Of a DNA stretch of 64,000 nucleotides, positions 40,843 through 55,599 are shown piece by piece (within the stretch, counting starts at the first letter, position 1; every line of letters starts with the position of its first letter). The notes beneath the pieces were generated by a model. The model saw only the letters and a list, made by a program, of their open reading frames with translations. It searched no databases and was not told the origin of the DNA. The DNA lies in assembly GCA_030583725.1 (NCBI GenBank), contig CP129472.1, positions 334,958-398,957 on the forward strand, in the 5' to 3' direction. Source of the DNA: a bacterium (GTDB lineage Bacteria; Patescibacteriota; Microgenomatia; UBA8517). The position numbers and the translations under genes are program-made.

Positions 40843-41069
40843 ATTGTTGTATTACCATATCGTTAAATTCTACATAAACAGTCCCCACCCTGCCACATTT
40901 TGGGCATCTGAATCTGAATGTGTGAGCCATCCGGGTCTGGAACCGTTTAGTCCCATAACCACTTGGTTCTTACCATTGTCTCACGTCCTGGCTAAACAAG
41001 ACAAATAAGACACTATAAAAGGACTGTCTCAGTTTACTGATGTATTTTGATATAGATAACTACTTATCC

Positions 41070-42722
41070 TTATAACTGAATCTCTTTTCCATCCGAACCA
41101 GCTATAGTCATCTTAATCTTAGAGTCCTTTTTGGGGTATTTTTCCAGAAACTCTTGATTTTCACTCACTAAGTAGATGGTGTGGTACTCGCTTCCATCCT
41201 TTCGCTTCAAATCTCTGCCTTTAAGCAAGCCTTCTCGCCTGAGTTTACGAATTGAGGACGGATGAACGCCTCTATTGGAAGTAATCTCAAATTTATCAAA
41301 CCACTCAGACTTGTCATCGTGTTTACTGCGTTTTAGTGGCGGAATGACACCTTCCACTATATTCCTTCGACAATCGACACAACGTAAGCCATCCAGATTC
41401 CACCAAATCTCATTTCCATAATGACTTTCACCACAAATGCCACAATTGTATGGACCTTCACTGGCTTCTAGGAAGAAACCATCTGGTTCTTTGGTAAGTC
41501 TGCGTTTTCGCATGTTTTCAATGCCGTCATGTTCACCAATGAGTCTTGCGAGTTGGACTAGATTGTTAGAAGCATATTTTTGTCGCTTAGCTTCATCAAT
41601 CTTTGATTTTGGTTTAACAGGTTCTTCTTTCTTGCCAGCGAGTTTAAGCATGTCTTCTTCACGCTCATGGCCCTTTAATCGACCTTCAAGGTATCCAAGT
41701 CTGTAACTGACACTATTGGAGAGTAATCGCCAGTTTGTGTCTTCTAGTGAGTTCTTAATGACCTTTTCTAGCTCCGAAACACTGATTCTGTCTCTTCTGG
41801 ATGAGTCGGCATCTTGAACGGTGAAGGGAACAATCACATATTGGCCTATTTCTGGTTTATCAAACGATAGTTTGGCGTATTTAGCGTTCTCAAGCGACTT
41901 GGTTAGCAAAGTTTCTAGATCAGAGATGTTGGTCTTCTTGAGCTGTAGAGAGCGCTCATAGACAGGATTATCGTACTTTTGCATTTCTTCTTCCCGTACG
42001 ACCTTAGCTACTTCCATCGCCTCTATCAGCTCAATGTATTCTTGACCCTCTTTGTCGGACAAACAGAACTCAGAGCGGTATTTTTCAAGTAACTCCTTGT
42101 CTTTTTTCTTCTCAGCTTCTCGTTCAAGATCTTTCTTGCCCAAATCCTCAACTTCAACTTTCTTGTATTTACATGAGGTACATTTTTCAGTGGTGGTTAT
42201 AACATCGCCTTTTCGTTTGTAGATGGTCTTTATCTCTTTACTACACTCAGGGCATAAATTTGGTTTTGAGATGTGTTCTTCACCATTGTCATACAAGCCT
42301 AGACGCTTCTTGCACTTTGGACATTCAAAAATAAACATAACTCGCATTGGTTTATCTTCTGGCCAGTCTTCCAGATGCTTAAAATCTTCGGCAACCATCT
42401 CGGTTTTACAATGGGGACACAAAACATTGGCAGGTGAAGGGGTATTGTCTACTTTGTCTTGCCTTACTCGATCTTTTTCTACCCAATCGCTGATAGTCTC
42501 TGCTTTACGTCGATATTCCTCACCCTTTTTAACTCGTAGATCCCAAGAAATGTAATGATTAAAACCTTTTTCTACTTCTTCTGGAGAAATTTCTTTAAGC
42601 TTGGGGTCGGTATCTTTTTTCTTGTATAAGTCTTGCCAGAAATGAATAACTTTTAAGCAGGCCTTTATAGTGAAAAGGTCGTAAAGATCAACATAATATT
42701 GTTCATCTTTAAGATATTTCAT
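41070..42722 (-). CDS. multi-zinc-ribbon protein (three CxxC...CxxC ribbons plus a KE-rich coiled coil), unknown family
   Basis: CPHCKTEM...CPKCKKR; CPECSKE...CTSCKYKK; CGICGES...CVDCRRN. A paralog occurs at 63204. Confidence 0.6.
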   Translation of the reverse strand: MKYLKDEQYYVDLYDLFTIKACLKVIHFWQDLYKKKDTDPKLKEISPEEVEKGFNHYISWDLRVKKGEEYRRKAETISDWVEKDRVRQDKVDNTPSPANVLCPHCKTEMVAEDFKHLEDWPEDKPMRVMFIFECPKCKKRLGLYDNGEEHISKPNLCPECSKEIKTIYKRKGDVITTTEKCTSCKYKKVEVEDLGKKDLEREAEKKKDKELLEKYRSEFCLSDKEGQEYIELIEAMEVAKVVREEEMQKYDNPVYERSLQLKKTNISDLETLLTKSLENAKYAKLSFDKPEIGQYVIVPFTVQDADSSRRDRISVSELEKVIKNSLEDTNWRLLSNSVSYRLGYLEGRLKGHEREEDMLKLAGKKEEPVKPKSKIDEAKRQKYASNNLVQLARLIGEHDGIENMRKRRLTKEPDGFFLEASEGPYNCGICGESHYGNEIWWNLDGLRCVDCRRNIVEGVIPPLKRSKHDDKSEWFDKFEITSNRGVHPSSIRKLRREGLLKGRDLKRKDGSEYHTIYLVSENQEFLEKYPKKDSKIKMTIAGSDGKEIQL

Positions 42723-42727
42723 AGCCT

Positions 42728-43579
42728 TTAACTGTCTTTATAGTTTCCTATCTCGAAAATAGCGGCCTGTAAAACCTGCCAGCTAATTTTTGCTGTATGT
42801 TCATGTGGACTAAAACCGCTCGCTACCTGCTGGTAGGGGTGAATGTAATTTCTAAAATCTCTTAGTGCGTGACTATGTTTCTTCACATCATCCCCCAAAA
42901 TTTTGAGATCACTCGCGGTGTCAATAAAATTAGATAGTGTCCAGTTGTGAAAAGGTAGAACTTTTCCTTCTTTCTGAGGGGCGCATTTTGATTGATTGAA
43001 TTTTCTAGCGTATTTACTTGCTGTCCCTAGAAGAATTCCTTCCAATGTGCTGCCACATAAGAAGATAGTTGCTAAAGAAGACTTTGATGATAAACACTTC
43101 CTAATTTCTTCAATTCTTTGGCTAAGGGTATCAGTGATTGTTGTATCCAAACCTAATTTTTCCAGAGAAACACTCTTAAATTCTTTATTTATAAATTCAT
43201 CTTCAGATGATACTTGATCTGATTGTTTTGGCGGTTGGCCTCCCACAAGTCTAATGACGATCTTTTGACATTCATCAAAAAGAGACTGATCGTTACTTGT
43301 AATAACCACGCCATCAATAAGCCTCTTTGTTTTCCAGTACTCTAGTAAGTCGGCTATTAACTTTCCGACAATATGGTTAGGCTCTTGCTCCCATAGAGAT
43401 CTCAGCCTATTAGCTTTTGATCCGCTTGCATAAGAGTATTTATCACTCCATATATCAATTTTTATAGCCGAATGAACAAACTCCTGAAGTTTTTGATTGG
43501 AAAGGTCAAGAACATAACCACCACCCATTTCAAGTATTCGTTCAAGTTTCAATTTTTCAATATTAGTAATATTTGACAT
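42728..43579 (-). CDS. hypothetical protein with C-terminal HEPN-like R-x6-H motif
   Basis: HALRDFRNYIHPYQQ near the C-terminus. There is a 6-nt gap to the AAA_13 gene upstream and a 5-nt gap to the ribbon gene downstream. Confidence 0.5.
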   Translation of the reverse strand: MSNITNIEKLKLERILEMGGGYVLDLSNQKLQEFVHSAIKIDIWSDKYSYASGSKANRLRSLWEQEPNHIVGKLIADLLEYWKTKRLIDGVVITSNDQSLFDECQKIVIRLVGGQPPKQSDQVSSEDEFINKEFKSVSLEKLGLDTTITDTLSQRIEEIRKCLSSKSSLATIFLCGSTLEGILLGTASKYARKFNQSKCAPQKEGKVLPFHNWTLSNFIDTASDLKILGDDVKKHSHALRDFRNYIHPYQQVASGFSPHEHTAKISWQVLQAAIFEIGNYKDS

Positions 43580-43585
43580 GTGTAT

Positions 43586-45814
43586 CTATCCAGTAATTGA
43601 TTTCTCCAATATTGAATAGTGTTCTGGGAATGTTGTTTGAATCATTTCAAGCAAATATTTAACATTCTTTTGAGTCTCTTGAACCAAAGAGGGATCAAGA
43701 CCTTTTCCAGTTATGTGTGATTGATCGTTTGTGAACTTATATATTGCTGTAAGTTTGTTTTGATCAAATTTATCATTTAATGATTCAAGTTTTTTGAACG
43801 GACTCTGGTTGCTTGGGACTCTAAACATTAAGAATGTCTCTAATGCTTTCCTGGCTATATTAGGCATATGATATACAGACATGATTGTGCCATCAGACTT
43901 AAATGTATAGAGAAGTTTAAAAAGAAAATGGTATTCACTCTCATGATCCTGAAGATCTTTGTCTAGCAGGGAGATGCTGGCTACTCTCCCCGCAGTAGTG
44001 TCAGTATTTTTGATCATGTAATAGCTTTTTTCGCCTGCACTGTTAGGAATATTTTTTACCCAATTTAAAAGTAATCTAAGAAAATCAAAATTGTGAGTCA
44101 GTACAAATATTTGCTTTGCATCCTTAACTGAATTTTTTAAGAAGGCAAAAGCTTGAAATAATGAATTAGAATCTAAACTAGATACAGGGTCGTCTATTAC
44201 TAAAATTCCTTCTTTCGTGTCAAAATTCTGATCCTGTAAATGAACAGTAAAATACACGAATGCAATTGCTGTTTTTTCTCCCTCACTTAAATTCTCAGCT
44301 ATTTTTCCATGTCGCTTAATAACATAACCATCACCTTCTACCTCAAAAGTTATTTCATCCCTTCCTAGGAAAGTTTTTATACCATCATTAATCGCCTTAC
44401 AGGCTTTGTGCGAGGAAGATATTTTGCTCTTATTTTCGATGATGGCCTTACTTGTTGATTCAAGATCACTCTTTTTGTTGGTCAAGTCTTTCTTGCTATT
44501 TTCCATTTTTGTCTCAAGTTCATTGATGTCATCAAAAATAGTGCTTAAATAATGTTTTTCCAATTCTTTTTGGGCATTTAATTTTTCATTCTTAAAATTG
44601 TTTGATTTATCATTATGCTGTTTGATCAATTCATTTATTTCACTGATTGCACTAAGAAATTCATCTAGATTTATTTTTTGTTCAAAATTAACTACTTCAG
44701 TGGTCTTTGACTTTTTTTCTTTTACTAAAGTTCCAGCTTTTGTGATCTCACCTAGGATGGTCTTTTTTACTGTCTCAAATTTCTCTGCCTTCTTTTGGTA
44801 ATCTGGTTGAATTTCATCATAAAGATTCGCTTTATCTATCGTTTTTACTGTCTCAATCTGTGAATAAAGTGACCTGAGGTCAGATAAATTCTCGTCGATT
44901 TTAATCTTTAGCTTTTTGTCAGCGTCATTGAAGTGTTTTGCGAGCTCGAGAAGCCTTTCTTTTGGTAAACTTTGATTACAGAATTCGCAGACGGTTGACT
45001 TGTGTGTTTCGTGGATGTGAATACCATTTTCAACCCACTCTGAAATATCGGCATTGTCTTTTAGTTTGTCTATTATTACTGTTTCAACAGTTTCTCTACA
45101 CAAGTTAACGGCTACCTCATTTATTTTTTCTATACCTTTATTGGTGTCATAGGTATTACCCCCAATCACCAACTGAGGAGTGGAAAGTAGGGTTAGCTGA
45201 GGCTTTTCTAGTTGTCTAAGGGTGAGGTTATGCTTAGTAAGTCCAGCCTCATCAATCAATTCCTTCTTTAAAAGTTTTTTGAAAGCTTCTTCGGCGTCTC
45301 GTTTGTCATACCGACGAGTGGCCTCACCTGAGGTGTTGGAACTAATTGTTCTCGCAATATCAGTAAACTTCTTATTTTTATCCTTTTCTTGATTTTCCAA
45401 ATCTAGTTTATGTTTCTTGATTTGAGAATTAAGGCTGATAACTTCTTTCTCATCCTTTTCTATCTGATCTGCAATTTTTTTATTCTCTTCTCCCAGAATG
45501 TATATTGGTTTTGCAGTACAAGATAAGACCTGTACATTATTTGCAACATAATCTTGATTGAACACTCTCACTTTTCTGGAGTAGGTTGTTCCTTGCTTGG
45601 TTACTCCAGATTCAGAATCAATTTCATATTCCAGTTCCGGGAACTTAGTTGACTGTCCAGATTCGAGGGTGTCAAAAAGACTAGAAAGAGTGGTTTTGCC
45701 ACAGCCATTCCATCCATAAATAATGTTGTACCTTTTAAAATCAGGCAAAGAAGAATCCCAGACATAGTCACTGAATATTCCTAAGTTTTTTATCTTCTTA
45801 ATTTTCTTGATCAT
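43586..45814 (-). CDS. AAA_13/RloC-like ABC-type ATPase with long coiled coil and CxxC zinc hook
   Basis: Starts MIKKIKKIKNLGIFSDY (a typical AAA_13 N-terminus), Walker A GWNGCGKTT, a coiled coil of more than 400 aa containing CEFC, and Walker B/D-loop LVIDDPVSSLD. I trimmed 20 codons from the ORF-track start. Confidence 0.7.
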   Translation of the reverse strand: MIKKIKKIKNLGIFSDYVWDSSLPDFKRYNIIYGWNGCGKTTLSSLFDTLESGQSTKFPELEYEIDSESGVTKQGTTYSRKVRVFNQDYVANNVQVLSCTAKPIYILGEENKKIADQIEKDEKEVISLNSQIKKHKLDLENQEKDKNKKFTDIARTISSNTSGEATRRYDKRDAEEAFKKLLKKELIDEAGLTKHNLTLRQLEKPQLTLLSTPQLVIGGNTYDTNKGIEKINEVAVNLCRETVETVIIDKLKDNADISEWVENGIHIHETHKSTVCEFCNQSLPKERLLELAKHFNDADKKLKIKIDENLSDLRSLYSQIETVKTIDKANLYDEIQPDYQKKAEKFETVKKTILGEITKAGTLVKEKKSKTTEVVNFEQKINLDEFLSAISEINELIKQHNDKSNNFKNEKLNAQKELEKHYLSTIFDDINELETKMENSKKDLTNKKSDLESTSKAIIENKSKISSSHKACKAINDGIKTFLGRDEITFEVEGDGYVIKRHGKIAENLSEGEKTAIAFVYFTVHLQDQNFDTKEGILVIDDPVSSLDSNSLFQAFAFLKNSVKDAKQIFVLTHNFDFLRLLLNWVKNIPNSAGEKSYYMIKNTDTTAGRVASISLLDKDLQDHESEYHFLFKLLYTFKSDGTIMSVYHMPNIARKALETFLMFRVPSNQSPFKKLESLNDKFDQNKLTAIYKFTNDQSHITGKGLDPSLVQETQKNVKYLLEMIQTTFPEHYSILEKSITG

Positions 45815-45995
45815 AGTTTTCAATAAACTTCTTGATATCTTCTTTTCTATATTTCCTGTCTTTTCTTGTTCCAAATCGTACAGCCTTAAGAATGCCTTTT
45901 TTATCCCACAATCTTAAGGTATTAGGATGAACTTTTAATAGTTCACAGGCCTCCCTCATGCTCAGTAGTTCTGGTATTTTGTCGTCATTTTTCAT
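45798..45995 (-). CDS. excisionase/AlpA/MerR-type helix-turn-helix DNA-binding protein
   Basis: LSMREACELLKVHPNTLRLWDKKGIL HTH; length 65 aa. Confidence 0.6.
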   Translation of the reverse strand: MKNDDKIPELLSMREACELLKVHPNTLRLWDKKGILKAVRFGTRKDRKYRKEDIKKFIENYDQEN

Positions 45996-46226: not shown

Positions 46227-47555
46227 ATGAAAGACACAAAGATTCAAACGGTGGAAGTTCCCGTGAACGAACTCATCACACCAGACTATAACCCTCGCAA
46301 GCATGACGACCTTGCTAAAGAACAATTAAAAGAAAGCATCCGTCGATTTGGGATTGTCGACCCGATAGTCGCAAACTCCTCGCTTGCCCGCAAAAACATA
46401 GTTATCGGAGGCAACTTTAGGTTGGAGACAATCAAAGAGCTAGGTTACACCACCGTTCCTGTCGTATACGTCGATATACCAGATCTTGATAGGGAAAAAG
46501 AACTCAATATTCGCCTCAATAAAAATACTGGCGAGTTTGATTGGAATCTGTTGGCGAAGTTCGATGTCTCGCTACTTACTGATATTGGTTTTACCAGCGG
46601 TGAACTCGACACGATCTTTGATATCGAAGACACGCCTGAGGAATTTAATCTTGAAAAAGAGTTAAAGAAGCTAGACATAGAGACTATAAACACTAAAAAA
46701 GGTGATGTGTATGAGTTGGACGGAAGTCGGTTAATGTGTGGCGACTCAACAATAGTAGAAGACTTCACCAAGCTTATGAATGGTGAGAAAGCGGATATGT
46801 GTTTTACTGATCCGCCTTACATCCTCGATTACCTCAATGGCAAGAAAAAGCATGGCTCGGCAGTTACAGGGTTTGGTGCAAAGCGAGATAGAAGATATTT
46901 GGAAACTGATGTGCTTCCACCAGACTTTACTGAGAAATGGATGGGCAATATCGCCAAAGCCCAAAAAGAACATTTCAGTATTATTGTTTACGAGAACTGG
47001 AAGAACATTCGTACCATTTGGGGTGAGATGGAGAAATTCTGGAAGGTTAAGAACATGATCGTCTGGCACTTACCCAACAGACATCAAGGATTTTCAGCTA
47101 AACACAAGTTTTTCTCTAAACATGACATAGCCATGGTTGGTGCTTCACCAGATGTAGATGTTGAGTTCAACTGGGAAGAAGAAGCAGACGGGTTACAAGA
47201 AGAATACGAGACCGCACTATATGCCATAGCAGGCAAACCCCACTGGGAAGGCTACGAGCGAGGCAGGAAGAACCAACCAACTGATTTCATCGAGTACGTA
47301 GCCTCAGATGAGAAGCATTCTGGGCAAGGTGTAATTTTTGGTACGAAGCCCACTGAAATCCTCATTCCATATATTAAGATGCTCACTAAGCGTGGCGATC
47401 TCATTATTGAGCCATTTGGAGGCAGTGGAAGCACTCTGATGGCCTCAACCAAGATGAAGCGCCGATGCTACATCATGGAAAAATCGCCAGTCTATACCGA
47501 GGTCATTATTAAACGCTGGGGAAAGCTGACTGGACTAAAAGCAAAGAAACTATGA
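46227..47555 (+). CDS. ParB-like nuclease domain fused to beta-class N6A/N4C DNA methyltransferase
   Basis: An N-terminal ParB/Srx fold pattern, then DPPY (CFTDPPYILDY) and a later FGGSGST motif I (EPFGGSGSTLMA). This is the beta order, IV before I. Confidence 0.8.
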   Translation: MKDTKIQTVEVPVNELITPDYNPRKHDDLAKEQLKESIRRFGIVDPIVANSSLARKNIVIGGNFRLETIKELGYTTVPVVYVDIPDLDREKELNIRLNKNTGEFDWNLLAKFDVSLLTDIGFTSGELDTIFDIEDTPEEFNLEKELKKLDIETINTKKGDVYELDGSRLMCGDSTIVEDFTKLMNGEKADMCFTDPPYILDYLNGKKKHGSAVTGFGAKRDRRYLETDVLPPDFTEKWMGNIAKAQKEHFSIIVYENWKNIRTIWGEMEKFWKVKNMIVWHLPNRHQGFSAKHKFFSKHDIAMVGASPDVDVEFNWEEEADGLQEEYETALYAIAGKPHWEGYERGRKNQPTDFIEYVASDEKHSGQGVIFGTKPTEILIPYIKMLTKRGDLIIEPFGGSGSTLMASTKMKRRCYIMEKSPVYTEVIIKRWGKLTGLKAKKL

Positions 47556-48148: not shown

Positions 48149-48933
48149 ATAAAGCATCTCTCATTCAAAAGATTATTTCAAAAGGTGTGGTTCTGACACC
48201 ATTTGAAGCGATTCAGTTGCGATATCTCGAACGTAAGGGCATTTTGAACGGCCTCATTAATATTGAGAGAGAAGCCAATCCATACATTGCCGCTGAACGA
48301 GCAACGGGGCCAATTTCACCTGTGATGGTCAACTTTATGGTTCAACAAACAAGAGCCGAATCACCTGATGAGTACCAGGAATATAACTTTGCCTATGAAT
48401 CCATGCTCGATCAAGATAGTAATAGCACCAAGCAGGCATATAAAGGGTTAATGCTGATAACTCAACTCAGGCTAATTAAAGCGGAATTTCAAGCAACACC
48501 AATTCATAAGACCAAAGGTTCCTTGTTAGATTTTGGCTCGTATTCTTATTATCACCACAGCACCAAAACTTTCACTCAAACTTTAGAGTCTTTGGGAGAC
48601 ACATTTAAATACTTTATTCAGGACATCGATAACATTCTGACATTGAACTGTTATCTTCATGAGTTAGCGGAACTAAAAGATTTCCAGTGTCTGAGTTTAT
48701 TAAAGTTGTGGTTAAGTAAGCCAATAAGCAGTCACAATGAGGACTTTGAATATTTAAATGGAGCGTATCTTTGTTGTAGTTCGGAAATGATCAATTTGGT
48801 ATTAGATAGAAACCATCAAAACTATGTTGATGGTTTAGAACGTCATGTTGGACACATATCTATAGATTTCGCAGAAAATTCGCTTAAGTACGTTAAGAGC
48901 GTACTTGGAGATTTAACTAAAGCAGATCTTTAA
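48139..48933 (+). CDS. hypothetical protein
   Basis: A 264-codon ORF with a 10-nt overlap with the upstream gene. Confidence 0.45.
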   Translation: MDLNKASLIQKIISKGVVLTPFEAIQLRYLERKGILNGLINIEREANPYIAAERATGPISPVMVNFMVQQTRAESPDEYQEYNFAYESMLDQDSNSTKQAYKGLMLITQLRLIKAEFQATPIHKTKGSLLDFGSYSYYHHSTKTFTQTLESLGDTFKYFIQDIDNILTLNCYLHELAELKDFQCLSLLKLWLSKPISSHNEDFEYLNGAYLCCSSEMINLVLDRNHQNYVDGLERHVGHISIDFAENSLKYVKSVLGDLTKADL

Positions 48934-49340
48934 AGTCCAAGGATCTGTTTTTTCTTCTGGTCAAACTCTTCTTGGGTTAAGATTCCTTTGTCTTTAAGTT
49001 GACTAAGCTTCTCGAGTTCATCTGCGTCACTTGCTCCACCTGATTTTTTCTTCATCAGATTAAGGATGAGTTCTTCAGCCTTCTTGGCTTCGGCAACTTT
49101 CACAAAAGGAGCTTCGAGCTTTTGATCACCTGTACCAAACACTTTGACGGTAGCTGCTCCTGGAGACATGAATACAGCCGCCATCACTACTTTAATTTCA
49201 ACTCCTGTGAGTTGTTCTTTCATGATGGTGTTAGCCTTATATGATCCGAGGAATTTAAGCTCTATAGCGACTCTGTCGTCATAGACCATTAAGAATCCTT
49301 TGGTGGTTCTGGCTTTAAGTAGTACTTTCATAGTTTTCAC
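48930..49340 (-). CDS. SHOCT-domain protein
   Basis: The C-terminal LKDKGILTQEEFDQKKKQIL is the SHOCT motif. Confidence 0.6.
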   Translation of the reverse strand: MKTMKVLLKARTTKGFLMVYDDRVAIELKFLGSYKANTIMKEQLTGVEIKVVMAAVFMSPGAATVKVFGTGDQKLEAPFVKVAEAKKAEELILNLMKKKSGGASDADELEKLSQLKDKGILTQEEFDQKKKQILGL

Positions 49341-49458: not shown

Positions 49459-49671
49459 ATGAGAAAAAATGCAAAGTTACCAAAAGTCCTAGGCAAGAGA
49501 GTCCAGAAGCGCAGGAAGGAACTTGGACTCACTCAGGAAGATGTGGGTTATAAAGTCGGCATTAGTCGGGCTTATATGGGTTATATTGAGCAAGGTAGAA
49601 ATGCACCCTCTCTCGAGATACTTGAGAAAATCGCCAAAGCACTCAAGTCTCCAATTAGTGATTTTTTCTAA
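49459..49671 (+). CDS. XRE-family HTH transcriptional regulator
   Basis: LGLTQEDVGYKVGISRAYMGYIEQGRNAPSLEILEKIA. Confidence 0.75.
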   Translation: MRKNAKLPKVLGKRVQKRRKELGLTQEDVGYKVGISRAYMGYIEQGRNAPSLEILEKIAKALKSPISDFF

Positions 49672-49741: not shown

Positions 49742-52417
49742 ATGTCACAGCTATTTAAATCAATTTACTTTCCAAATTACAGCGATCAAGATTCTAAGTC
49801 ATTTACTCTAGCTTTTTCAGAGAAGGACTTAGATTTATACGATATTCTAAAAAATATCTCTAGCCTTGAGATTAGAAGTTTGCTATCCGCTCAAACACTC
49901 AAAGATCTGACTGACAAAGCAGATCAAGAGCATTTGGCACTAAACACCTACTGTCTTTGGAAACTACGTAAAAACTTTTCGCAAAGCCACACTAATGAGG
50001 AAGGGGTTAATGGCCAGTTACCATTATTGAAAATTGACCCCATTCATGTAACCTTCGAAGGTGGCAAGAAGCTTCCATTACAATCTTGGTTTCCCTACCT
50101 CGAGGGATATTCTCCAGATTTTGTTACTCACATAATTAACAACTATTTGAATAAAAATACCAGAACAATTTATGATCCGTTTTCTGGGTCAGGAACTACC
50201 CCACTAGTAACTTCTACTTTGAAGTACACATCTTATTATTCAGAGGTAAATCCGTTACTGCAATTTTTATCTCAAACAAAGTTTAAGGCTAGAAATATCG
50301 TAAATAAAGAGAAGACAATTGAAATACTAAACGAGATAAAATCTAATCTTAAAAAGAATATTATCAAACAAGCCGAAGATGAAGTATTAAGGAAAGCATA
50401 TCAAGACACTTTTGGAAGCAGTAAATTCTTTAACGATGAAGTATTTTCATACATACTTAAAACAAAGACTTATTTGAATGGTTTATCTAAGTCTGAAAAT
50501 TTAATATCTGACCTAGTTTGTACTGCCGTATTGGGGAGTTTGATAAAAGTTTCACTATTAAAACGACAAGGTGATCTGAGATTCAAAAATCAAAGTGAGC
50601 TCTTAAAGGCTAAAAAATCTGAATATTTTGAGACTCTAGAACAATGTCTTCAAAATATAATCGACGATCTTAAAGTGATAAAAAAAGCCTCCGAACCCAT
50701 ATTTCTAACTGACGACGCTCGAAAGTTAAAGGATTTGGAATCAGTTGGAATCGATGCTGTCATCACAAGCCCACCATATTTAAATGGAACAAACTATTTT
50801 AGAAACACAAAAGTTGAGCTTTGGTTTTTGGGAAATTTGAAAACTCCAAAGGATCTAAATGAATTCCGAAGACAGGCGGTGACGGCTGGTATTAACGATG
50901 TTTCTTTCAAAGAAGAAAAACTTATCGAGAACAAACAACTTAATGATTTACTAGAAATCATGAGAAAAAATGCTTATGACAAGAGAATTCCGAAGATGGT
51001 TCATGATTATTTTGCTGATATGAAGATTATCTTTGAAGGACTACAAAGACACTTAAATGATAATGCAGTGTTGGCAATTGATTTGGGTGACTCGATTTAT
51101 AGTGATGTTCATGTAAAAACTGATGAAATATTAATTTCCATATTGACTAATATTGGATATAAATTCGAAAAAAATGTTGTTTTGCGCAGAAGAATATCTA
51201 AAAGTGGTGCTGAATTACGACAGGTATTGCTAATCTTTAGATACTCGAAACCAAAGAAGGACAGCCTAGTTCCATTGGACCAAGCGTATGCTTGGCAAAA
51301 TTCATGGAATGATTTTAAGAAAGACCTGCCCCATCAAAAAGTTCCTTTCTCTAAGAGAAATTGGGGTGATCCTATGCACTCACTCTGTTCATATCAAGGA
51401 AAGCTAAAGCCATCCATAGCAAATATGTTGGTATCGATATTTGTCCCTCCAAATGGATCGGTATTAGATATTTTTGCAGGAGTTGGCACTATTCCATTAG
51501 AAGCTGCGCTACAAGGCAAAAAATCTTTTGGATTCGATATTAGTAACCCAGCAATTGCAATTTCTCGAGCAAAGTTGACATTGCCATCAAAAGAAAGAAC
51601 TTATGAAATAATCTCAGATCTAGAAAGCCACATCCGAAATGAAAGTGTTGATGAAATGATCCATGAAAAAGCGGAAAGGTTTGGATTTAATAAAAAATTA
51701 GTAGATTATTTTCATAAAGATACTCTAAATGAGATTTTAGTATCGAGAGAGTATTTTAGAAAAAACGGGTTCGATACTCCAGAGAAATCTATTGTTCTTG
51801 CATCCATTCTTCACATATTACATGGCAACAGACCATATGCCCTCAGTAGAAGGTCTCATGGGATTACTCCATTTGCACCAACTGGAGAATTTGAGTACAA
51901 AAATTTAATTACAAAACTAAAAGAAAAAATTGATCGTTCATTTAAACACTTTGATAGGACCAATTTTGCAAAAGGTAAAATGTACTTTCAAAACTCTTTG
52001 AAGCCTTGGCCAGAAGAAGTTAAAAACTTAGATTCGATAATAACAAGCCCTCCTTTTTTTGATAGCACAAGATTTTATGTATCAAACTGGATGAGACTTT
52101 GGTTCGCAGGATGGGATGAGGAAAACTTTAAAACAGATTCTGTTGACTTTATAGAGGAATTACAGAAAAAGGATTTCTCTGTATATAACTCAATATTTAG
52201 TCAAGCAAAGGAGAGACTCAAAAAAAATGGAACGCTTGTGATGCATCTCGGAAAAAGCAAGAAGTGTGACATGGCAACCGTTTTATCTGAAAAAGCTAAA
52301 CCATGGTTTGATACTGCAGATATCTTTGAGGAGAGTGTTAGAAAAGGTGAGTCACATGGTGTTACTGACAAAGGAACGGTTGTTGATCACCAATATCTTG
52401 TTCTTATTCCAAACTAA
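49742..52417 (+). CDS. tandem double DNA methyltransferase (two alpha-class N6A/N4C MTase domains, M.FokI-like architecture)
   Basis: Domain 1 has motif X-I (WFPY...IYDPFSGSGTT) and motif IV (ITSPPYLNG). Domain 2 has HSLCSYQGKLKP...VLDIFAGVGT and IITSPPFFDS. Confidence 0.7.
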   Translation: MSQLFKSIYFPNYSDQDSKSFTLAFSEKDLDLYDILKNISSLEIRSLLSAQTLKDLTDKADQEHLALNTYCLWKLRKNFSQSHTNEEGVNGQLPLLKIDPIHVTFEGGKKLPLQSWFPYLEGYSPDFVTHIINNYLNKNTRTIYDPFSGSGTTPLVTSTLKYTSYYSEVNPLLQFLSQTKFKARNIVNKEKTIEILNEIKSNLKKNIIKQAEDEVLRKAYQDTFGSSKFFNDEVFSYILKTKTYLNGLSKSENLISDLVCTAVLGSLIKVSLLKRQGDLRFKNQSELLKAKKSEYFETLEQCLQNIIDDLKVIKKASEPIFLTDDARKLKDLESVGIDAVITSPPYLNGTNYFRNTKVELWFLGNLKTPKDLNEFRRQAVTAGINDVSFKEEKLIENKQLNDLLEIMRKNAYDKRIPKMVHDYFADMKIIFEGLQRHLNDNAVLAIDLGDSIYSDVHVKTDEILISILTNIGYKFEKNVVLRRRISKSGAELRQVLLIFRYSKPKKDSLVPLDQAYAWQNSWNDFKKDLPHQKVPFSKRNWGDPMHSLCSYQGKLKPSIANMLVSIFVPPNGSVLDIFAGVGTIPLEAALQGKKSFGFDISNPAIAISRAKLTLPSKERTYEIISDLESHIRNESVDEMIHEKAERFGFNKKLVDYFHKDTLNEILVSREYFRKNGFDTPEKSIVLASILHILHGNRPYALSRRSHGITPFAPTGEFEYKNLITKLKEKIDRSFKHFDRTNFAKGKMYFQNSLKPWPEEVKNLDSIITSPPFFDSTRFYVSNWMRLWFAGWDEENFKTDSVDFIEELQKKDFSVYNSIFSQAKERLKKNGTLVMHLGKSKKCDMATVLSEKAKPWFDTADIFEESVRKGESHGVTDKGTVVDHQYLVLIPN

Positions 52418-53015
52418 TTGAACTAGGAAACTTACCAGTTTTTTTTCTATAAATGGAGATCAAGTCGATATTTGTTGTAGTAAGAACTTTATTCAGAGCT
52501 TTAAAAATGAGATCTGCAACTTTTTTGCCTTTCTTAATCTTTTGGTAGTCATTTCTTGATAAAAAGTCTTCGAAAACCCACTCAACGTTTTCTTTAAGGA
52601 GACCAGAAACTGACTCATTCACTGTTCTTTCTTTGCTCGAAATAACTTCATAGGGAATCCCAGTTAATTTTGAAAGAATCATTAACTTGTTTTTGTCGTA
52701 AAGTTTAAATTCACTGGGAAAAAGATCGTGTTTCAAAGAGTTACAACTCTTACATAAAGCTGTAGCCGTGGCATCCAAGGGCCAAAGATAGACAAGTGGA
52801 AGTGTGTGATCGATATCCATATCGGTAATTTTTTCTAGCTTCTTGCCACAACCAAAACAAGATTTCGAAAAGTTATTCCAAATATAGTCCTGAAATTCTA
52901 TCCCATTCGCACTACGAAACGTCTTTACGACATCTTGTTTGGTAAGCTCGATAATAAGACGTTCGAAAGCCCGCCTTCGCGCACTGTCTTCGTGGTGTTG
53001 AGCTTTATTTCGCAA
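52404..53015 (-). CDS. HNH endonuclease
   Basis: CFGCGKK...DIDHTLPL...CKSCNSLKHD is an HNH/zinc motif. It converges on the double MTase with a 14-nt overlap. Confidence 0.65.
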   Translation of the reverse strand: MRNKAQHHEDSARRRAFERLIIELTKQDVVKTFRSANGIEFQDYIWNNFSKSCFGCGKKLEKITDMDIDHTLPLVYLWPLDATATALCKSCNSLKHDLFPSEFKLYDKNKLMILSKLTGIPYEVISSKERTVNESVSGLLKENVEWVFEDFLSRNDYQKIKKGKKVADLIFKALNKVLTTTNIDLISIYRKKTGKFPSSISLE

Positions 53016-53163: not shown

Positions 53164-53910
53164 TCAATAAATATATCTACTGAAAGCGTTATGAACGCAG
53201 GGTGCCTTTTTCTTACAATGATTGCTAAATCCTAAAGAATTTGACTCATTTTCAACATCAATTGGAAGGAACCTGGCACATCTGTTGCACGATTTACTCA
53301 CAATATATCCAGGCTCAATTTGCTCAGGATCTTTAACATCAAAGTCAAATTCACAAGAATCGAGATAGTAAATATCCGGTTTATATAAATCTGTCTTTTC
53401 ATAGAAAGCATTAAAGTAATTCGATTTTTCAGCATAGAATTTGACTACATCTGCATACAGCTCATATATTTCCAATTGGAAGTTGGGTGTGGCTGACACG
53501 ATTTTCAGAGAAACTGAGACACTGTAAGTTTTGGCACCATCTTCTACTTCTATTTGTAGGTCGTTTCCCACTCTAACCCAATGACTATTAGAGACCTTAT
53601 AGGTTTTCTTGGACTCAGCAATTAAACCGCTCTCATCAGTCAACTCGATCTTTATAGTTAACTCTGAATTTGTACTAATTTTTATGTAACCACCAGCACC
53701 ATAAATTCCTAGGTTCTTATCAAACAATTTAGTGAAGACGACACTAGGATCTTTTTTAGAAAGAGTTATCTGAGAACCATTAATTCTGAAAACTTTAGTT
53801 TGTGATAATAAACATTCACTACCTGTTTTAATACCACCAACATTAAATCCGCTTCTTTGTCTAGTTAGCCTTCTTTTTGGCTGCAAAAATTTAGATAATT
53901 TTATTTCCAT
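53164..53910 (-). CDS. hypothetical protein
   Basis: A 248-codon ORF with a C-terminal Cys/His cluster (CNRCARF...HCKKKAPCVH). Confidence 0.4.
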   Translation of the reverse strand: MEIKLSKFLQPKRRLTRQRSGFNVGGIKTGSECLLSQTKVFRINGSQITLSKKDPSVVFTKLFDKNLGIYGAGGYIKISTNSELTIKIELTDESGLIAESKKTYKVSNSHWVRVGNDLQIEVEDGAKTYSVSVSLKIVSATPNFQLEIYELYADVVKFYAEKSNYFNAFYEKTDLYKPDIYYLDSCEFDFDVKDPEQIEPGYIVSKSCNRCARFLPIDVENESNSLGFSNHCKKKAPCVHNAFSRYIY

Positions 53911-53981
53911 GATGGAATTATATCGGGTATAAGACTATTATGCTATTTTGAACCTAGACTTCCTCAAGAGACAGCGGTACA

Positions 53982-55337
53982 TTGACTACTGAAATGAGTG
54001 CCAAATACAACCAAAATACGACGATAGAACCGCCCAAGATAGAATATTGTCTCTATGCTCGTAAGTCTTCGGAATCCGATGAAAGGCAAGCAATGTCGAT
54101 TGATTCTCAGATTGATGAGATGCTGACTTTAGCTAAACGAGATAATTTAAAAATTAAAGCGATTAAAAAAGAAAGTCATTCTGCAAAAATGTCTGGATCA
54201 AGACCTGTATTTACTGAATTACTTCAAGATTTAAGACAAAAGAAATTTAACGGAATTTTAACTTGGGCTCCTGATAGGCTTTCGAGAAACGCAGGAGACT
54301 TAGGATCTGTAGTTGATTTAATGGATCAAGGAAAATTAGTAAAAATCCAGACATATTCACAAAGTTTTTCAAACAGTCCAAATGAAAAGTTTTTATTAAT
54401 GATTCTCTGCTCTCAAGCAAAGCTTGAAAATGATAACAAAGGATTAAACGTTCAAAGAGGGTTGAGAACTAAGTGTAGTATGGGGTGGAGACCATCAGTT
54501 GCTCCTCTGGGTTATCTAAATCAAGCAGGAGATGGACATAAAGACGAACTCATCATTATTGACCAAGAACGATCCTCCTTTGTCAAACAGATGTTTGATC
54601 GGATGGCGAACCAAGGTCACAGTGGAAGGGCTATAAAGAACTGGTTAGATAGAATTGGGTTTAAAACTAAAAATGATAAACCACTAGCATTAAGTAGGTT
54701 ATATACAACTCTTAGTAACCCTTTTTATTATGGAGAATTTGAATTTCCAGTTGGAAGTGGAACTTGGTATCAAGGAAAGCATAAACCATTAATCTCAAAG
54801 GAATTGTTTGACAAAGTTCAAATAATGCTTGAAACACCTCCAAAAAGCTATCACAATAAGATCTTTCCGTTTAAAAAGATATTTAGATGTGGTGGTTGTA
54901 ACGGTGGAATAACTGCTGATGACAAACTTAGAAAATTAAAAGGTGGTGGGTATACTAAACATATTTACTATCACTGTGCTAGATCTGTAAATTACGAGTG
55001 TGACGAGCCGTATATTACCGAAAACGATTTAGTAAAACAATTAATTGCAAACATAGATAAAATTAAATTCAACAACTCTGGTATAAATAGAAAAATTCAA
55101 GAAGATATTGAAAGATATCATAGACTAAAAACACAAGTGCTACACCAAGAATTTATAGACGGGTATCTACCAGAATTTAATAGAGTTCCACAAACCACAA
55201 TTGATAAAAACGAAATGACTAAAAACTATCTTTTGCACATATTACAAGTTGGAACTGCTGAAGAAAGACAAGAAGCATTGAGTTTTATCAAAACTAAATT
55301 TATTCTATCTAAAAGAACTATAACAATAGAAAAATAA
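53982..55337 (+). CDS. large serine recombinase (phage-type serine integrase)
   Basis: A resolvase catalytic domain (YARKSSESDERQAMSIDSQ with the catalytic Ser), a recombinase domain and a zinc ribbon (CGGCNG...HCARS); length 451 aa. Confidence 0.85.
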   Translation: MTTEMSAKYNQNTTIEPPKIEYCLYARKSSESDERQAMSIDSQIDEMLTLAKRDNLKIKAIKKESHSAKMSGSRPVFTELLQDLRQKKFNGILTWAPDRLSRNAGDLGSVVDLMDQGKLVKIQTYSQSFSNSPNEKFLLMILCSQAKLENDNKGLNVQRGLRTKCSMGWRPSVAPLGYLNQAGDGHKDELIIIDQERSSFVKQMFDRMANQGHSGRAIKNWLDRIGFKTKNDKPLALSRLYTTLSNPFYYGEFEFPVGSGTWYQGKHKPLISKELFDKVQIMLETPPKSYHNKIFPFKKIFRCGGCNGGITADDKLRKLKGGGYTKHIYYHCARSVNYECDEPYITENDLVKQLIANIDKIKFNNSGINRKIQEDIERYHRLKTQVLHQEFIDGYLPEFNRVPQTTIDKNEMTKNYLLHILQVGTAEERQEALSFIKTKFILSKRTITIEK

Positions 55338-55512
55338 CTCCAGATTAATATCTGGTGTACTTTTCGTTGTCTAAACTTGGTCTAAAACAAGGCCATTTCT
55401 TCACTATTACAGGATATAAAAGTGTTTTCTGGGCAAGATGATAGAAGATTAGCAAGTGTTGTTGAGCTTTTCTGGCCATGCGAGCAGGTCTGGCTGAACC
55501 TTGCGATATATG

Positions 55513-55586
55513 TGACCCCAGTGAGATTCGAACTCACGATCTCTTGGATGAGAACCAAGTGTCCTAGGCCACTAGACGATGGGGCC
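55513..55586 (-). tRNA. tRNA-Glu (anticodon CUC)
   Basis: Hand-folded cloverleaf on the minus strand. The acceptor stem is GGCCCCA/UGGGGUC, the D-arm is UCUAGUGGCCUAGGA, the anticodon stem CUUGG/CCAAG has loop UUCUCAU, and the T-arm is GUUCGAAUC. No encoded CCA. Confidence 0.8.
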
Positions 55587-55599
55587 TCCTAGAATAGGG

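What the first reader, a model, noticed from the sequence alone, without database searches (positions are those of the whole stretch)
40843..55590. Putative ~14.7-kb integrative island ending at a serine integrase next to tRNA-Glu
A large serine recombinase (53982-55337) lies 175 nt from tRNA-Glu(CUC), with lon directly beyond it. On the left, the housekeeping block of lysS, greA and a small ORF ends at 40842. In between are an excisionase-like HTH gene, a ParB-MTase fusion, a terminase-small-like HTH gene, SHOCT and XRE regulators, a double MTase with an HNH nuclease, a 248-aa Cys/His protein and the AAA_13 module. This gene set is typical of a prophage remnant, ICE or defence island. GC content is not distinct from the host. 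I could not find att direct repeats; serine integrases usually need only short imperfect inverted repeats, so that absence is not informative.
Basis: partly seen in the sequence, partly recalled or inferred. Interest (0 to 1): 0.65.

Follow-up and report, generated by a model that had tools for sequence, protein, structure and literature searches.

The report
Serine-integrase island inserted in tRNA-Glu
This is a real 14.6-kb mobile island that a large serine integrase inserted at the very 3' end of a tRNA-Glu gene in an ultrasmall (CPR/Woesebacteria) bacterium; it carries anti-phage cassettes and belongs to a large family of elements that I found no description of, all of which target tRNA genes in the same way.

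Summary
In related Woesebacteria, lon, tRNA-Glu(CUC) and greA lie 0.2-4 kb apart, with only 213 bp between lon and greA in L015.

I mapped both junctions. The element spans window 40921-55515 (14,595 bp). The two ends share the core TCACA, which is the last bases of the tRNA. The host sequence left of the island (40879-40920) directly follows the tRNA in relatives L011, L014 and L016.

The same two element ends occur in independent copies: both in L032, the left end in L109 and the right end in L007. Homology starts exactly at the junctions.

The integrase is an intact large serine recombinase (LSR). Its relatives (518 metagenome hits; 96 loci studied) almost always have a conserved element arm abutting the 3' end of a tRNA-Glu, -Lys or -Ser gene.

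- **Shared backbone:** p550, ParB-methylase, a small-terminase-like gene, large terminase (replaced by p264 in this lineage), XRE and the LSR.
- **Variable cargo here:** PDC-S06 (AAA_13) with a DUF4145 protein, and a methylase/HNH/p248 cassette.
- **No virion or conjugation genes** in the complete copies.

Integration is well supported. The means of transfer between cells (satellite-like packaging) is inferred. Excision was not observed.

The parts
40879..40920 (-). B' arm: host sequence that originally followed the tRNA-Glu 3' end. It is outside the element.
   Evidence: Read on the minus strand it is ACATTCAGATTCAGATGCCCAAAATGTGGCAGGG. In L011 a homologous stretch (81% over 53 nt, blastn alignment window 40928..40879) directly follows ...GGGGTCAC of the tRNA. 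L014 and L016 have ACATTGAGA and ACAATGAGA there.
40921..40925 (-). attL core (TCACA on the minus strand), shared with attR.
   Evidence: Homology with independent element copies L109 and L032 begins exactly here, at GTGAGCC.
40921..41069 (.). Conserved non-coding left end of the element. It contains the P arm: a mimic of the tRNA 3' end (GGCTCAC), then CGGGTCTGGAACC and GTCCCATAACCA.
   Evidence: 78-80% identical in L109 and L032, whose outer flanks are unrelated. The same motif sits at the left ends of elements L137 and L176 of the tRNA-Ser clade.
41070..42722 (-). p550: a backbone protein with several CxxC zinc ribbons. Function unknown.
   Evidence: At least 446 homologues; every source name shown is a Patescibacteria-type MAG apart from one labelled Omnitrophica, and 119 of the 120 listed have no Pfam domain. 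It occupies the left end in L182, L120, L127, L141 and L166. The AF2 model has pLDDT 85 and no match with E <= 0.001 in PDB or BFVD.
42728..43579 (-). p283: a DUF4145-containing protein in cargo slot 1, likely partner of the AAA_13 gene.
   Evidence: Pfam DUF4145, E 1.6e-4, just under the cut-off. It has no tblastn match in the related elements compared.
43586..45874 (-). AAA_13 ATPase = PADLOC candidate defence gene PDC-S06 (cargo slot 1).
   Evidence: Pfam AAA_13, E 1.9e-134. PADLOC PDC-S06, E 2.6e-260, full length.
45798..45995 (-). HTH_17/MerR-type small DNA-binding protein, first gene of the leftward operon. It is a candidate regulator or excision (directionality) factor.
   Evidence: Pfam HTH_17, E 1.1e-10. 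Homologues occur in related elements L086/L182, L102, L105, L096 and L170.
46227..47555 (+). ParB_N + N6/N4 DNA methyltransferase fusion (backbone).
   Evidence: Pfam. PHROG 498, E 1.2e-76. Conserved upstream of TerS in most related loci.
47552..48148 (+). p198: small-terminase-like HTH protein (backbone).
   Evidence: Weak matches to PHROG small-terminase families (3.5e-6). Its homologue L092:8012-8452 scores 1.2e-10. In relatives it is always followed by a large terminase.
48139..48933 (+). p264: an all-helical protein of unknown function that occupies the position of the large terminase in this sub-lineage.
   Evidence: No TerL remnant in 47401-50000. p264 homologues occupy the same slot in L116, L120 and L127. 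Only 23 homologues were found. AF2 pLDDT 85, no PDB fold match.
48930..49340 (-). SHOCT-domain protein.
   Evidence: Pfam SHOCT, E 2.6e-10. Also present in L088, L124 and L127.
49459..49671 (+). XRE-family HTH regulator (backbone).
   Evidence: Pfam HTH_3, E 2.1e-14. Homologues of 60-91% identity in many related elements.
49742..52417 (+). 891-aa fused DNA methyltransferase (cargo slot 2).
   Evidence: Pfam N6_N4_Mtase + UPF0020. PADLOC MTase_II, E 1.8e-70.
52404..53015 (-). 203-aa HNH-like nuclease (cargo slot 2).
   Evidence: Pfam HNH, E 0.0036. PHROG endonuclease VII, 1.2e-6. A gene of similar size sits between the p248 homologue and the large MTase in L194 and L196.
53164..53910 (-). p248: Cys-rich protein, third member of the methylase cassette (cargo slot 2).
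   Evidence: No family hit. Its homologues in unrelated contigs lie in the same three-gene arrangement with a ~140-206-aa gene and a 695-815-aa MTase.
53982..55337 (+). Large serine recombinase (integrase). The likely start is the ATG at 53994.
   Evidence: Pfam Resolvase 1e-19, Recombinase 1.7e-13, Zn_ribbon_recom 1.1e-5. Catalytic motif YARKSSESDERQ. PDB relatives are SPbeta SprA/YokA and TP901-1 Int.
55338..55510 (-). Conserved non-coding right end of the element. It contains the P' arm ATATATCGCAAGGTTCAGCCAGACC (minus strand), which abuts the tRNA.
   Evidence: Conserved in L007, L032, L102-L108 and others. In 42 of 52 loci the P' motif lies directly against a tRNA 3' end.
55511..55515 (-). 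attR core (TCACA on the minus strand). It overlaps tRNA positions 71-74 plus one base. The inferred crossover dinucleotide is TC.
   Evidence: The best dyad symmetry of the reconstructed attB (13/22) is centred on this TC.
55512..55586 (-). tRNA-Glu(CUC), the integration target. It remains intact after insertion.
   Evidence: ARAGORN. Rfam tRNA, 61.9 bits.

Best explanation
Window 40921-55515 is a 14.6-kb site-specific integrative element.

**Integration (shown by comparison).** Its large serine recombinase recombined an element site (attP, reconstructed as ...AACGGTTCCAGACCCGGATGGCTCAC|ATATATCGCAAGGTTCAGCC...) with a chromosomal site (attB, ...GAATCTCACTGGGGTCAC|ACATTCAGATTCAG...). attB spans the 3' end of tRNA-Glu(CUC). 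Exchange occurred within the shared TCACA, most likely at the TC of tRNA positions 71-72. Because the element end mimics the tRNA terminus, the tRNA stays intact.

**Family (shown).** The element belongs to a large family, seen almost only in Patescibacteria-type MAGs, whose LSRs insert at the 3' ends of tRNA-Glu, -Lys or -Ser genes. Members share a backbone: p550, ParB-methylase, TerS-like gene, TerL or p264, XRE and LSR. Cargo sits in variable slots.

**Cargo (by homology).** Here the slots hold a PDC-S06 AAA_13 ATPase with a DUF4145 partner, and a three-gene methylase/HNH/p248 restriction-modification-like cassette. The island therefore most likely acts as a mobile anti-phage defence carrier.

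**Transfer (inferred, not shown).** The family has a terminase-type module but no capsid, portal, tail, relaxase or secretion genes. I therefore infer that it spreads like a phage satellite, packaged into a helper phage's particles. The TerL-less lineage in this window would rely on the helper's large terminase, as SaPI-type islands do.

**Excision (inferred).** It probably needs a directionality factor. The HTH_17 protein is a candidate.
For: **Empty site in relatives.**
- lon-tRNA-Glu-greA are contiguous or 0.2-4 kb apart in 12 related Woesebacteria genomes. None of them holds any island gene in that interval except the LSR: full-length in L007, a fragment in L032, and a different LSR in L011.
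- The greA upstream region is conserved only up to about window 40502. Homology of relatives to the tRNA side stops at 55508-55511.

**Junctions.**
- The tRNA 3' end is followed directly by ACATTSAGA... in L011, L014 and L016. In the window that sequence lies at 40920 and leftwards.
- Independent copies L109 and L032 share the left end, starting exactly at GTGAGCC, with unrelated outer flanks.
- L007 and L032 share the right end from the tRNA inwards.
- attB dyad symmetry of 13/22 is centred on TC within the shared core.

**Enzyme.**
- Three LSR domains and the catalytic Ser motif.
- SprA and TP901-1 are the nearest solved relatives.

**Family.**
- 518 relatives in metagenomes.
- Of 82 loci with at least 400 nt downstream of the LSR, 52 have a minus-strand tRNA within 7 kb downstream. 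These are only Glu, Lys and Ser; one short viral locus that this count left out has Gln.
- 42 of the 52 have the conserved P' motif abutting the tRNA.
- tRNA type follows the LSR tree.

**Horizontal spread.**
- In L127 the LSR is 76% identical while Lon is only 62% identical.
- Distribution among close relatives is patchy.

**Backbone and cargo.**

**No structural genes.**
- Complete elements of 8-16.5 kb (the window, L109, L137, L176, L182+L086) lack structural genes.
- Every TerL relative of 42% identity or more that I found sits in this module next to an LSR.

**Cargo as self-contained cassette.** The methylase trio recurs elsewhere as a unit.
Against: - No excised circle or attP junction was found. 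The exact 27-mer is absent from IMG/VR.
- No empty site was seen in the same species. The island is identical in the three samples that carry it.
- attP shows no convincing dyad symmetry around the core.
- The crossover dinucleotide is inferred, not measured.
- No helper phage, pac/cos site or replication gene was identified.
- The TerS assignment of p198 is weak (PHROG E 3.5e-6; below the Pfam cut-off).
- In this lineage TerL is missing, which could equally mean decay.
- The defence function of every cargo gene rests on homology. PDC-S06 is itself only a candidate system.
- Left ends were located in only 5 family members, so some relatives may be larger and may carry structural genes outside the 10-kb flanks I could read.
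Confidence: 0.8

Rival explanations
1. Degraded prophage. A once complete temperate phage integrated by the LSR at tRNA-Glu, then lost its structural, lysis and TerL genes. What remains is an immobile remnant whose defence genes are kept by selection.
For: - Terminase genes, a ParB-methylase next to TerS, XRE/HTH regulators and an LSR are all typical phage genes.
- TerL is absent here.
- L032 shows that copies do decay: it has an LSR fragment and replaced cargo.
- IMG/VR classed relatives as viral.
Against: - The structural-gene-free architecture is conserved in many independent loci and in all five complete copies of 8-16.5 kb.
- The TerL-less p264 variant is itself conserved across hosts whose Lon is only 62% identical.
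- The LSR and both att arms are intact here.
- No full phage carrying this TerL/LSR was found in IMG/VR patterns or in GenBank phages, where the best TerL match is 28% and the best LSR match 27% identical.
Confidence: 0.15
2. An integrative mobilisable element that moves by conjugation-like DNA translocation or by natural transformation, not by phage packaging. The terminase-like genes would serve another role, such as DNA processing or defence.
For: - One relative (L100) has an FtsK/SpoIIIE translocase near a p550-like gene beyond its LSR. This resembles actinomycete-type integrative elements.
- From general knowledge, CPR bacteria commonly encode competence machinery. I did not test this here.
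Against: - There is no FtsK, relaxase or secretion gene in the window element or in the other complete copies.
- TerS-TerL is by far the most conserved non-integrase module.
Confidence: 0.1
3. Not an insertion. The lon-greA interval is an ancestral variable region, and the serine recombinase acts as an invertase that flips the tRNA-containing segment.
For: - The orientation of tRNA-Glu between lon and greA differs among relatives.
- In L032 the whole [element + tRNA] block is inverted relative to the window.
Against: - The element always has the same polarity relative to the tRNA: the P' arm lies against the tRNA 3' end.
- The native downstream flank of the tRNA is found displaced by exactly the element length.
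- The same LSR clade sits at other tRNA loci in other genomes.
- The enzyme has the Recombinase and zinc-ribbon domains of integrases, not the small invertase layout.
Confidence: 0.03

Closest known systems
Large-serine-recombinase prophages and islands (SPbeta SprA, TP901-1, A118, phiC31, Bxb1; SCCmec CcrAB)
   Same: - Same enzyme family and domain order (Resolvase, Recombinase, zinc ribbon).
- The integrase gene sits next to attP.
- Short core identity only, with no long direct repeats.
- Like SCCmec at rlmH, insertion is at the extreme 3' end of a conserved gene, which stays functional.
- The nearest solved structures are SprA and TP901-1. The nearest NCBIfam models are CcrB and XisF.
   Different: - The target is the 3' terminus of a tRNA gene, which the element end regenerates. 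From my own knowledge, that habit is typical of tyrosine integrases. The large LSR survey I read analyses only protein-coding targets and never mentions tRNA.
- Identity to any deposited phage LSR is 27% or less.
- All NCBIfam scores are far below the family cut-offs.
tRNA-targeting genomic islands with tyrosine integrases (P4-like satellites, PICIs, many ICEs)
   Same: - Insertion at a tRNA 3' end, with the gene restored by the element.
- The integrase lies adjacent to the tRNA.
- Size of about 10-15 kb.
- Regulators of XRE and AlpA/HTH_17 type.
- Defence cargo in variable slots.
   Different: - The recombinase is a serine enzyme, not a tyrosine one.
- The shared identity is 5 bp rather than the tens of bp usual for tyrosine-integrase tRNA sites.
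- No primase/replicase module was found.
Phage satellites (SaPI/PICI with TerS; V. cholerae PLE, which uses an LSR)
   Same: - Small integrated element without virion genes.
- It carries packaging-specificity genes (TerS-like) and an integrase. PLE also uses a large serine recombinase (abstracts listed).
- Anti-phage cargo.
   Different: - Most family members also carry their own large terminase, which I do not know from described satellite families lacking capsid genes (own knowledge).
- No helper phage, induction circuit or replication module was identified.
- The host is a CPR bacterium.
- Satellite status is not tested.
PADLOC candidate system PDC-S06
   Same: The AAA_13 ATPase matches the PDC-S06 model end to end (E 2.6e-260).
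   Different: It is followed here by a DUF4145 protein in the same operon. PDC-S06 is a candidate with no mechanism that I could cite.
Reported CPR prophages (Roizmanbacteria ~27-kb prophage, PMC6509639)
   Same: An integrated mobile element in a Microgenomates-group CPR genome with an integrase and terminase.
   Different: That prophage encodes prohead, tail, tape-measure and lysozyme genes. This element and its complete relatives encode none.

Membership tests
Large serine recombinase (serine integrase) | N-terminal resolvase catalytic domain with the serine nucleophile | tested here: met
   Pfam Resolvase, E 1e-19, residues 24-168. Motif YARKSSESDERQ.
Large serine recombinase (serine integrase) | C-terminal Recombinase domain and zinc-ribbon domain (what distinguishes it from small resolvases/invertases) | tested here: met
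   Recombinase, E 1.7e-13. Zn_ribbon_recom, 26.2 bits against a cut-off of 25.3. The alignment to SprA/YokA covers residues 25-381.
Large serine recombinase (serine integrase) | Short attP/attB sites (~40-50 bp) that share only a small central core and have imperfect dyad symmetry | tested here: inconclusive
   A 5-bp shared core, TCACA, was found. attB symmetry is 13/22, centred in the core. attP symmetry is not convincing. The arms are conserved across copies.
Large serine recombinase (serine integrase) | Unidirectional integration, with excision dependent on a directionality factor | not testable with these tools
   There is only one candidate (HTH_17, 45798-45995).
Integrated mobile island (insertion relative to an empty site) | Related genomes have the flanks contiguous, and both junctions are precisely definable | tested here: met
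Integrated mobile island (insertion relative to an empty site) | Empty site or circular form within the same species or population | tested here: inconclusive
   Sample SRR22388160 has the exact host proteins, but none of the 4 island proteins I tested is on record there. Its contigs stop 25-27 nt from both junctions. No bridging contig was seen. The attP 27-mer is absent from IMG/VR.
Functional prophage | Capsid, portal, tail and lysis genes | tested here: not met
   PHROGs and Pfam scans of the island proteins found none. The same is true of the complete relatives.
Functional prophage | Large terminase | tested here: not met
   A profile of family TerL proteins finds nothing in 47401-50000. 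TerL is present in most relatives.
ICE / conjugative element | Relaxase, coupling protein and a type IV secretion or FtsK-like translocase | tested here: not met
   No such domains in any island ORF.
Phage satellite (PICI-like) | Integrase, regulators, small size and a packaging-redirecting gene (TerS) | tested here: inconclusive
   Integrase, XRE, HTH_17 and the 14.6-kb size are met. The TerS-like call for p198 is weak, but synteny with TerL in relatives supports it.
Phage satellite (PICI-like) | Replication module (primase/rep and ori) | tested here: not met
   None detected by Pfam, PHROGs or NCBIfam. p550 and p264 remain unknown.
Phage satellite (PICI-like) | Helper-phage-induced excision and packaging | not testable with these tools
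   No helper was identified. This needs an experiment or virome data.
PDC-S06 (PADLOC candidate defence) | Match to the PDC-S06 profile | tested here: met
   E 2.6e-260, profile positions 1-736 of 740.
Type II restriction-modification | DNA methyltransferase plus a cognate endonuclease | tested here: inconclusive
   The MTase is clear. The nuclease is only weakly HNH. The conserved trio with p248 in other contigs supports a cassette.

The most novel reading that the evidence does not exclude
The window element is one member of a so far undescribed, Patescibacteria-wide class of phage-satellite-like elements. These encode their own terminase (TerS, usually with TerL) and a ParB-methylase but no virion genes. 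They use a dedicated clade of large serine recombinases that recognise and regenerate the 3' ends of tRNA-Glu, -Lys or -Ser genes. They shuttle interchangeable anti-phage cassettes between ultrasmall bacteria. If so, they would be a main vehicle of defence-gene exchange in CPR genomes, which rarely encode CRISPR-Cas (abstract of PMC6509639), and a source of serine integrases with tRNA landing sites.
Probability: 0.35. Interest if true: 0.75.

Novelty: new variant of a known kind. Interest (0 to 1): 0.62.

Why it matters
1. It gives a base-precise example of a large serine recombinase that integrates into, and regenerates, the 3' end of a tRNA gene.
   - That behaviour is normally linked with tyrosine integrases.
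   - It is not covered in the large LSR survey I read.
   - I found no open-access paper combining these terms.
   - LSRs are prized genome-engineering tools. A clade whose attB is a conserved tRNA end, with sub-clades retargeted among Glu, Lys and Ser, is a natural series for studying and exploiting site selection.

2. Mobile elements and defence-gene traffic in CPR/Patescibacteria are little documented in what I read: a 2019 paper described its prophage as among the first reported in CPR genomes. This family has at least 518 LSR relatives and at least 446 p550 relatives. It looks like a major, recognisable vehicle with defined cargo slots.

3. A terminase module without any virion genes, conserved in compact complete elements, raises a testable question: do CPR bacteria host phage satellites?

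Tried and rejected
- **attP junction in IMG/VR.** An exact search for the reconstructed attP junction (ATGGCTCACATATATCGCAAGGTTCAG) gave no hit.
- **TerL remnant.** I searched window 47401-50000 with a profile of family TerL proteins and found nothing. p264 is therefore not a decayed terminase.
- **p550 and p264.**
  - Pfam, PHROGs, PADLOC, NCBIfam and PDB sequence searches gave nothing usable.
  - Good AF2 models (pLDDT 85) had no Foldseek match with E <= 0.001 in PDB. p550 likewise had none in BFVD.
- **Left ends of relatives.** A motif search for P arms located left ends in only L109, L032, L137 and L176. Most relatives extend beyond the 10-kb flank, so their full size is unknown.
- **attP dyad symmetry.** Not convincing.
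- **Hairpin in the P' arm.** I considered that the conserved arm is a structured RNA or terminator. By eye there are apparent compensatory changes (GCGC/GCGC against GCCA/TGGC). I did not test it and treat the arm as a protein-binding DNA site.
- **LSR as invertase.** I considered that the LSR might explain the tRNA orientation flips, and rejected this on the junction evidence.
- **GenBank phages.** No close relatives of the LSR or TerL (27-28% identity at most).
- **Literature.** Searches for serine integrases at tRNA genes or in Patescibacteria found nothing specific.
- **Rfam.** Only the two tRNAs in the window.

Full report
**1. What is in the window**

- **Left flank:** lysS (38355-39818, minus) and greA (39883-40344, minus).
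- **Right flank:** tRNA-Glu(CUC) (55512-55586, minus; also Rfam), then lon (55600-57969, minus) 13 nt further on.
- **Leftward operon:** HTH_17 (45798-45995), AAA_13 ATPase (43586-45874), a DUF4145 protein (42728-43579) and a 550-aa zinc-ribbon-rich protein (41070-42722).
- **Rightward genes:** ParB_N-N6/N4 methyltransferase (46227-47555), p198 (47552-48148), p264 (48139-48933), XRE (49459-49671) and an 891-aa methyltransferase (49742-52417).
- **Interspersed minus-strand genes:** SHOCT (48930-49340), an HNH-like 203-aa protein (52404-53015) and a 248-aa Cys-rich protein (53164-53910).
- **Recombinase:** a 451-aa protein (53982-55337) with Resolvase, Recombinase and Zn_ribbon_recom domains.

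The recombinase carries the catalytic motif YARKSSESDERQ. Its nearest solved relatives are SPbeta SprA/YokA and TP901-1 integrase. It is a large serine recombinase (LSR), not a small resolvase.

GC content is modestly raised. The island is 36.7%, against 34.3-35.5% for every equal-sized window to its left. The backbone genes account for the difference.

**2. It is an insertion**

A Lon-based scan of one genome per species identified the host as a Candidatus Woesebacteria (Microgenomates, Patescibacteria/CPR) bacterium and returned related genomes.

- In twelve relatives whose Lon is 75-85% identical, lon, tRNA-Glu(CUC) and greA-lysS are neighbours.
- The lon-greA gap is 213 bp in L015 and 540 bp in L008, and 1-4 kb elsewhere.
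- No island gene is present in those intervals, with three exceptions:
  - L007 has the same LSR (89% identical) at the same place;
  - L032 has an LSR C-terminal fragment;
  - L011 has a different LSR (36% identical).
- Nucleotide homology of relatives to the greA side ends near window 40502. Homology to the tRNA side ends at 55508-55511.

**3. The junctions, to the base**

Read in the tRNA's orientation, the window shows ...CTCACTGGGGTCAC|ATATATCGCAAGGTTCAGCC at the right end. At the left end it shows ...CCCGGATGGCTCAC|ACATTCAGATTCAGATGCCCAAAATGTGGCAGGG.

In L011 the tRNA 3' end runs straight into ACATTCAGATATGTCACTCAAAAATGTGGCAGGG. L014 and L016 have ACATTGAGA and ACAATGAGA at that position. 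So window 40879-40920 is the host sequence that once followed the tRNA. The element lies between the two copies of TCACA, at 40921-40925 and 55511-55515, and measures 14,595 bp.

Independent copies confirm both ends.

- **Left end:** a three-way alignment of the window, L109 and L032 shows homology that begins exactly at GTGAGCC and continues for about 140 nt. The outer flanks are unrelated.
- **Right end:** the window, L032 and L007 are homologous from the tRNA inwards.

The base before the core differs between the two ends (GGGG-TCACA against TGGC-TCACA). Exchange must therefore have occurred within TCACA. The reconstructed attB has its best dyad symmetry (13 of 22) centred on the TC of that core, so TC (tRNA positions 71-72) is the likely crossover dinucleotide. 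attP symmetry is not convincing.

The element end GGCTCAC mimics the tRNA terminus, so the tRNA remains intact. A small ORF at 40826-40930 takes its ATG from the element and the rest from the host flank. It is probably a junction artefact. The 74-aa ORF (40582-40806) is outside the element and is not conserved in relatives.

**4. A large family with the same habit**

Scans with the LSR returned 16 IMG/VR loci and 80 of 518 metagenome loci, at 48-87% identity.

- Of 82 loci with at least 400 nt beyond the LSR, 52 have a tRNA gene on the opposite strand within 7 kb downstream, with its 3' end facing the LSR.
- Those tRNAs are only Glu(CUC/UUC), Lys(UUU/CUU) or Ser isoacceptors. L090, with too little sequence beyond its LSR to enter that count, has Gln(UUG).
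- In 42 of the 52, a conserved element arm abuts the tRNA terminus. Its consensus is A(T/A)ATATCGYAAGGTTCAGCGCGACCCGT.
- The arm abuts the tRNA even where cargo separates the LSR from the tRNA.
- The tRNA type follows the LSR tree. The Glu/Lys-targeting clade, which includes the window, is monophyletic and nested among Ser-targeting clades.
- The left-end motif is a tRNA-terminus mimic followed by (C/T)GGGTCTGGAACC and GTCCCATA(A/G)CCA. It recurs in the Ser-clade elements L137 and L176, where the mimic is GCTCCGC.

Horizontal movement is suggested by two observations. In L127 the element sits at the same tRNA-Glu-lon site, but the LSR is 76% identical while Lon is only 62% identical. The element's presence among close relatives is also patchy.

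**5. Backbone and cargo**

Across the family the conserved same-strand order is ParB-methylase, p198-like gene, a ~500-aa protein, (XRE), cargo, LSR.

- The ~500-aa protein is a large terminase (PHROG 38, E 9e-83). The p198 homologues match small-terminase families.
- A p550 homologue lies at the far left on the opposite strand in L182, L120, L127, L141 and L166.
- The window lacks TerL. A TerL profile finds no remnant. p264 occupies that slot, as it does in L116, L120 and L127. This is therefore a stable sub-lineage and not a one-off deletion.
- Relatives carry type I restriction-modification genes and other large ATPase/methylase genes in the same slots.

In the window the two slots hold the following.

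- **Slot 1:** the AAA_13 protein, which is PADLOC candidate PDC-S06 (E 2.6e-260), with the DUF4145 protein.
- **Slot 2:** the 891-aa methylase, the HNH-like protein and p248. Homologues of this trio occur together in unrelated contigs, once beside a different LSR, so it is a self-contained cassette.

**6. What kind of element**

Complete copies range from about 8.2 to 16.5 kb: the window (14.6 kb), L109 (~9.5 kb), L137 (~10.3 kb), L176 (~8.2 kb) and the 16.5-kb contig covered by L182 and L086. None has a capsid, portal, tail, lysis, relaxase or secretion gene by PHROGs or Pfam.

Every TerL relative of 42% identity or more recovered from IMG/VR sits in this same module beside an LSR. GenBank phages hold nothing closer than 28% (TerL) or 27% (LSR).

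- A functional prophage is excluded.
- A decayed prophage is possible but fits the conserved compact architecture poorly.
- The best reading is a satellite-like, LSR-integrating defence island. Packaging by a helper phage is an inference from gene content only.
- p550 (at least 446 homologues) and p264 (23 homologues) gave confident AF2 models with no match with E <= 0.001 in PDB, nor in BFVD for p550. Their roles are unknown.

**7. Evidence on current mobility**

The island is identical in SRR24881069 and DRR859381, and island genes also occur in DRR779146.

Sample SRR22388160 contains exact host proteins (greA, the 74-aa ORF, lysS, lon). None of the four island proteins I looked up is on record there. 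Its two host contigs stop 25 and 27 nt from the two junctions. This fits an empty-site population, or a graph branch at the junctions. Co-occurring relatives that share the tRNA sequence could produce the same breaks. It is suggestive only. No attP junction was found.

**8. Comparison with what is known**

Mechanistically this is an LSR integration, as in SPbeta, TP901-1, A118 or SCCmec. The target choice, a tRNA 3' end regenerated by the element, is the habit of tyrosine-integrase islands (own knowledge).

- The large LSR survey I read analyses only protein-coding targets and never mentions tRNA.
- Open-access searches for serine integrases with tRNA-Glu, or in Patescibacteria, returned nothing.
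- CPR prophages have been reported, but with full structural modules.
- Satellites using an LSR exist (PLE). I know of no described satellite family with its own TerS + TerL and no capsid genes (own knowledge).

**9. Verdict**

I rate it a new variant of a known kind.

- Integration mechanism and boundaries: confidence about 0.9.
- Defence-carrier role: about 0.7, by homology.
- Satellite-like transfer: about 0.35.

Noticed in passing
window 55512-55586; loci L006-L032: The tRNA-Glu(CUC) gene between lon and greA changes orientation among related Woesebacteria. It is plus in the window, L006, L007, L009, L011 and L016, and minus in L008, L010 and L012-L015 as well as L032. Its native downstream flank moves with it. 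In L032 the whole block of decayed element plus tRNA is inverted relative to the window. The mechanism is unknown.
   Followed up: partly
window 55587-55610 (minus strand): The lon stop codon lies inside a promoter-like TGGTAAAAT just upstream of the tRNA. The arrangement is conserved in L006, L007 and L009, so lon's 3' end and the tRNA promoter overlap.
   Followed up: no
L011:12467-13986: A different large serine recombinase (36% identical) lies about 500 nt from the same tRNA-Glu, although the junction between the tRNA and its downstream flank looks uninterrupted there. The site seems to be a hotspot for more than one element type.
   Followed up: no
L032:12347-16552 (CP011214.1): This is a decayed copy of the element. 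Both ends and an LSR C-terminal fragment (aa 314-451, 85% identical) are kept. The interior is replaced by ORFs of 168, 295, 128 and 133 aa that I did not scan and that lack any homologue of the window island's genes.
   Followed up: partly
L183, L184, L185: Some family members carry two large-terminase-like genes in tandem between TerS and the LSR.
   Followed up: no
L100:10265-20206: In one IMG/VR contig the region beyond the LSR holds an aminoglycoside-phosphotransferase-like kinase, an ABC-F-type ATPase, a p550-like gene, an FtsK/SpoIIIE translocase and a DUF2779 protein. This hints that some relatives use another transfer route.
   Followed up: partly
L194:2391-8946; L196:160-3773: The trio of p248 homologue, a ~140-206-aa gene and a convergent 695-815-aa methylase recurs in unrelated contigs. 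In L194 it sits next to a 659-aa LSR with a DUF2924 partner. It behaves as a portable three-gene cassette.
   Followed up: partly
L002 (starts at window 40896) and L005 (ends at window 55538), sample SRR22388160: Host contigs of this sample stop 25-27 nt from both island junctions, and none of the four island proteins I looked up is on record for the sample. This could be an empty-site population.
   Followed up: partly
window 55470-55505 and the homologous P' arms in L102-L122: The conserved arm next to the tRNA contains a hairpin-like inverted repeat. By eye it shows apparent compensatory changes (TTCAGCGC...GCGCTGAA in L102 against GCCA...TGGC in the window). No covariation analysis was run.
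   Followed up: no
window 10003-10722 (minus strand): A 239-aa ORF lies in a 1-kb stretch of 47.6% GC, far above the ~34.5% background. It could be another foreign gene.
   Followed up: no
window 53164-53910: p248 is 100% identical to an NCBI MAG protein (locus tag QY322_02135) on an 841,695-bp contig. That contig is probably the source genome of the window.
   Followed up: no
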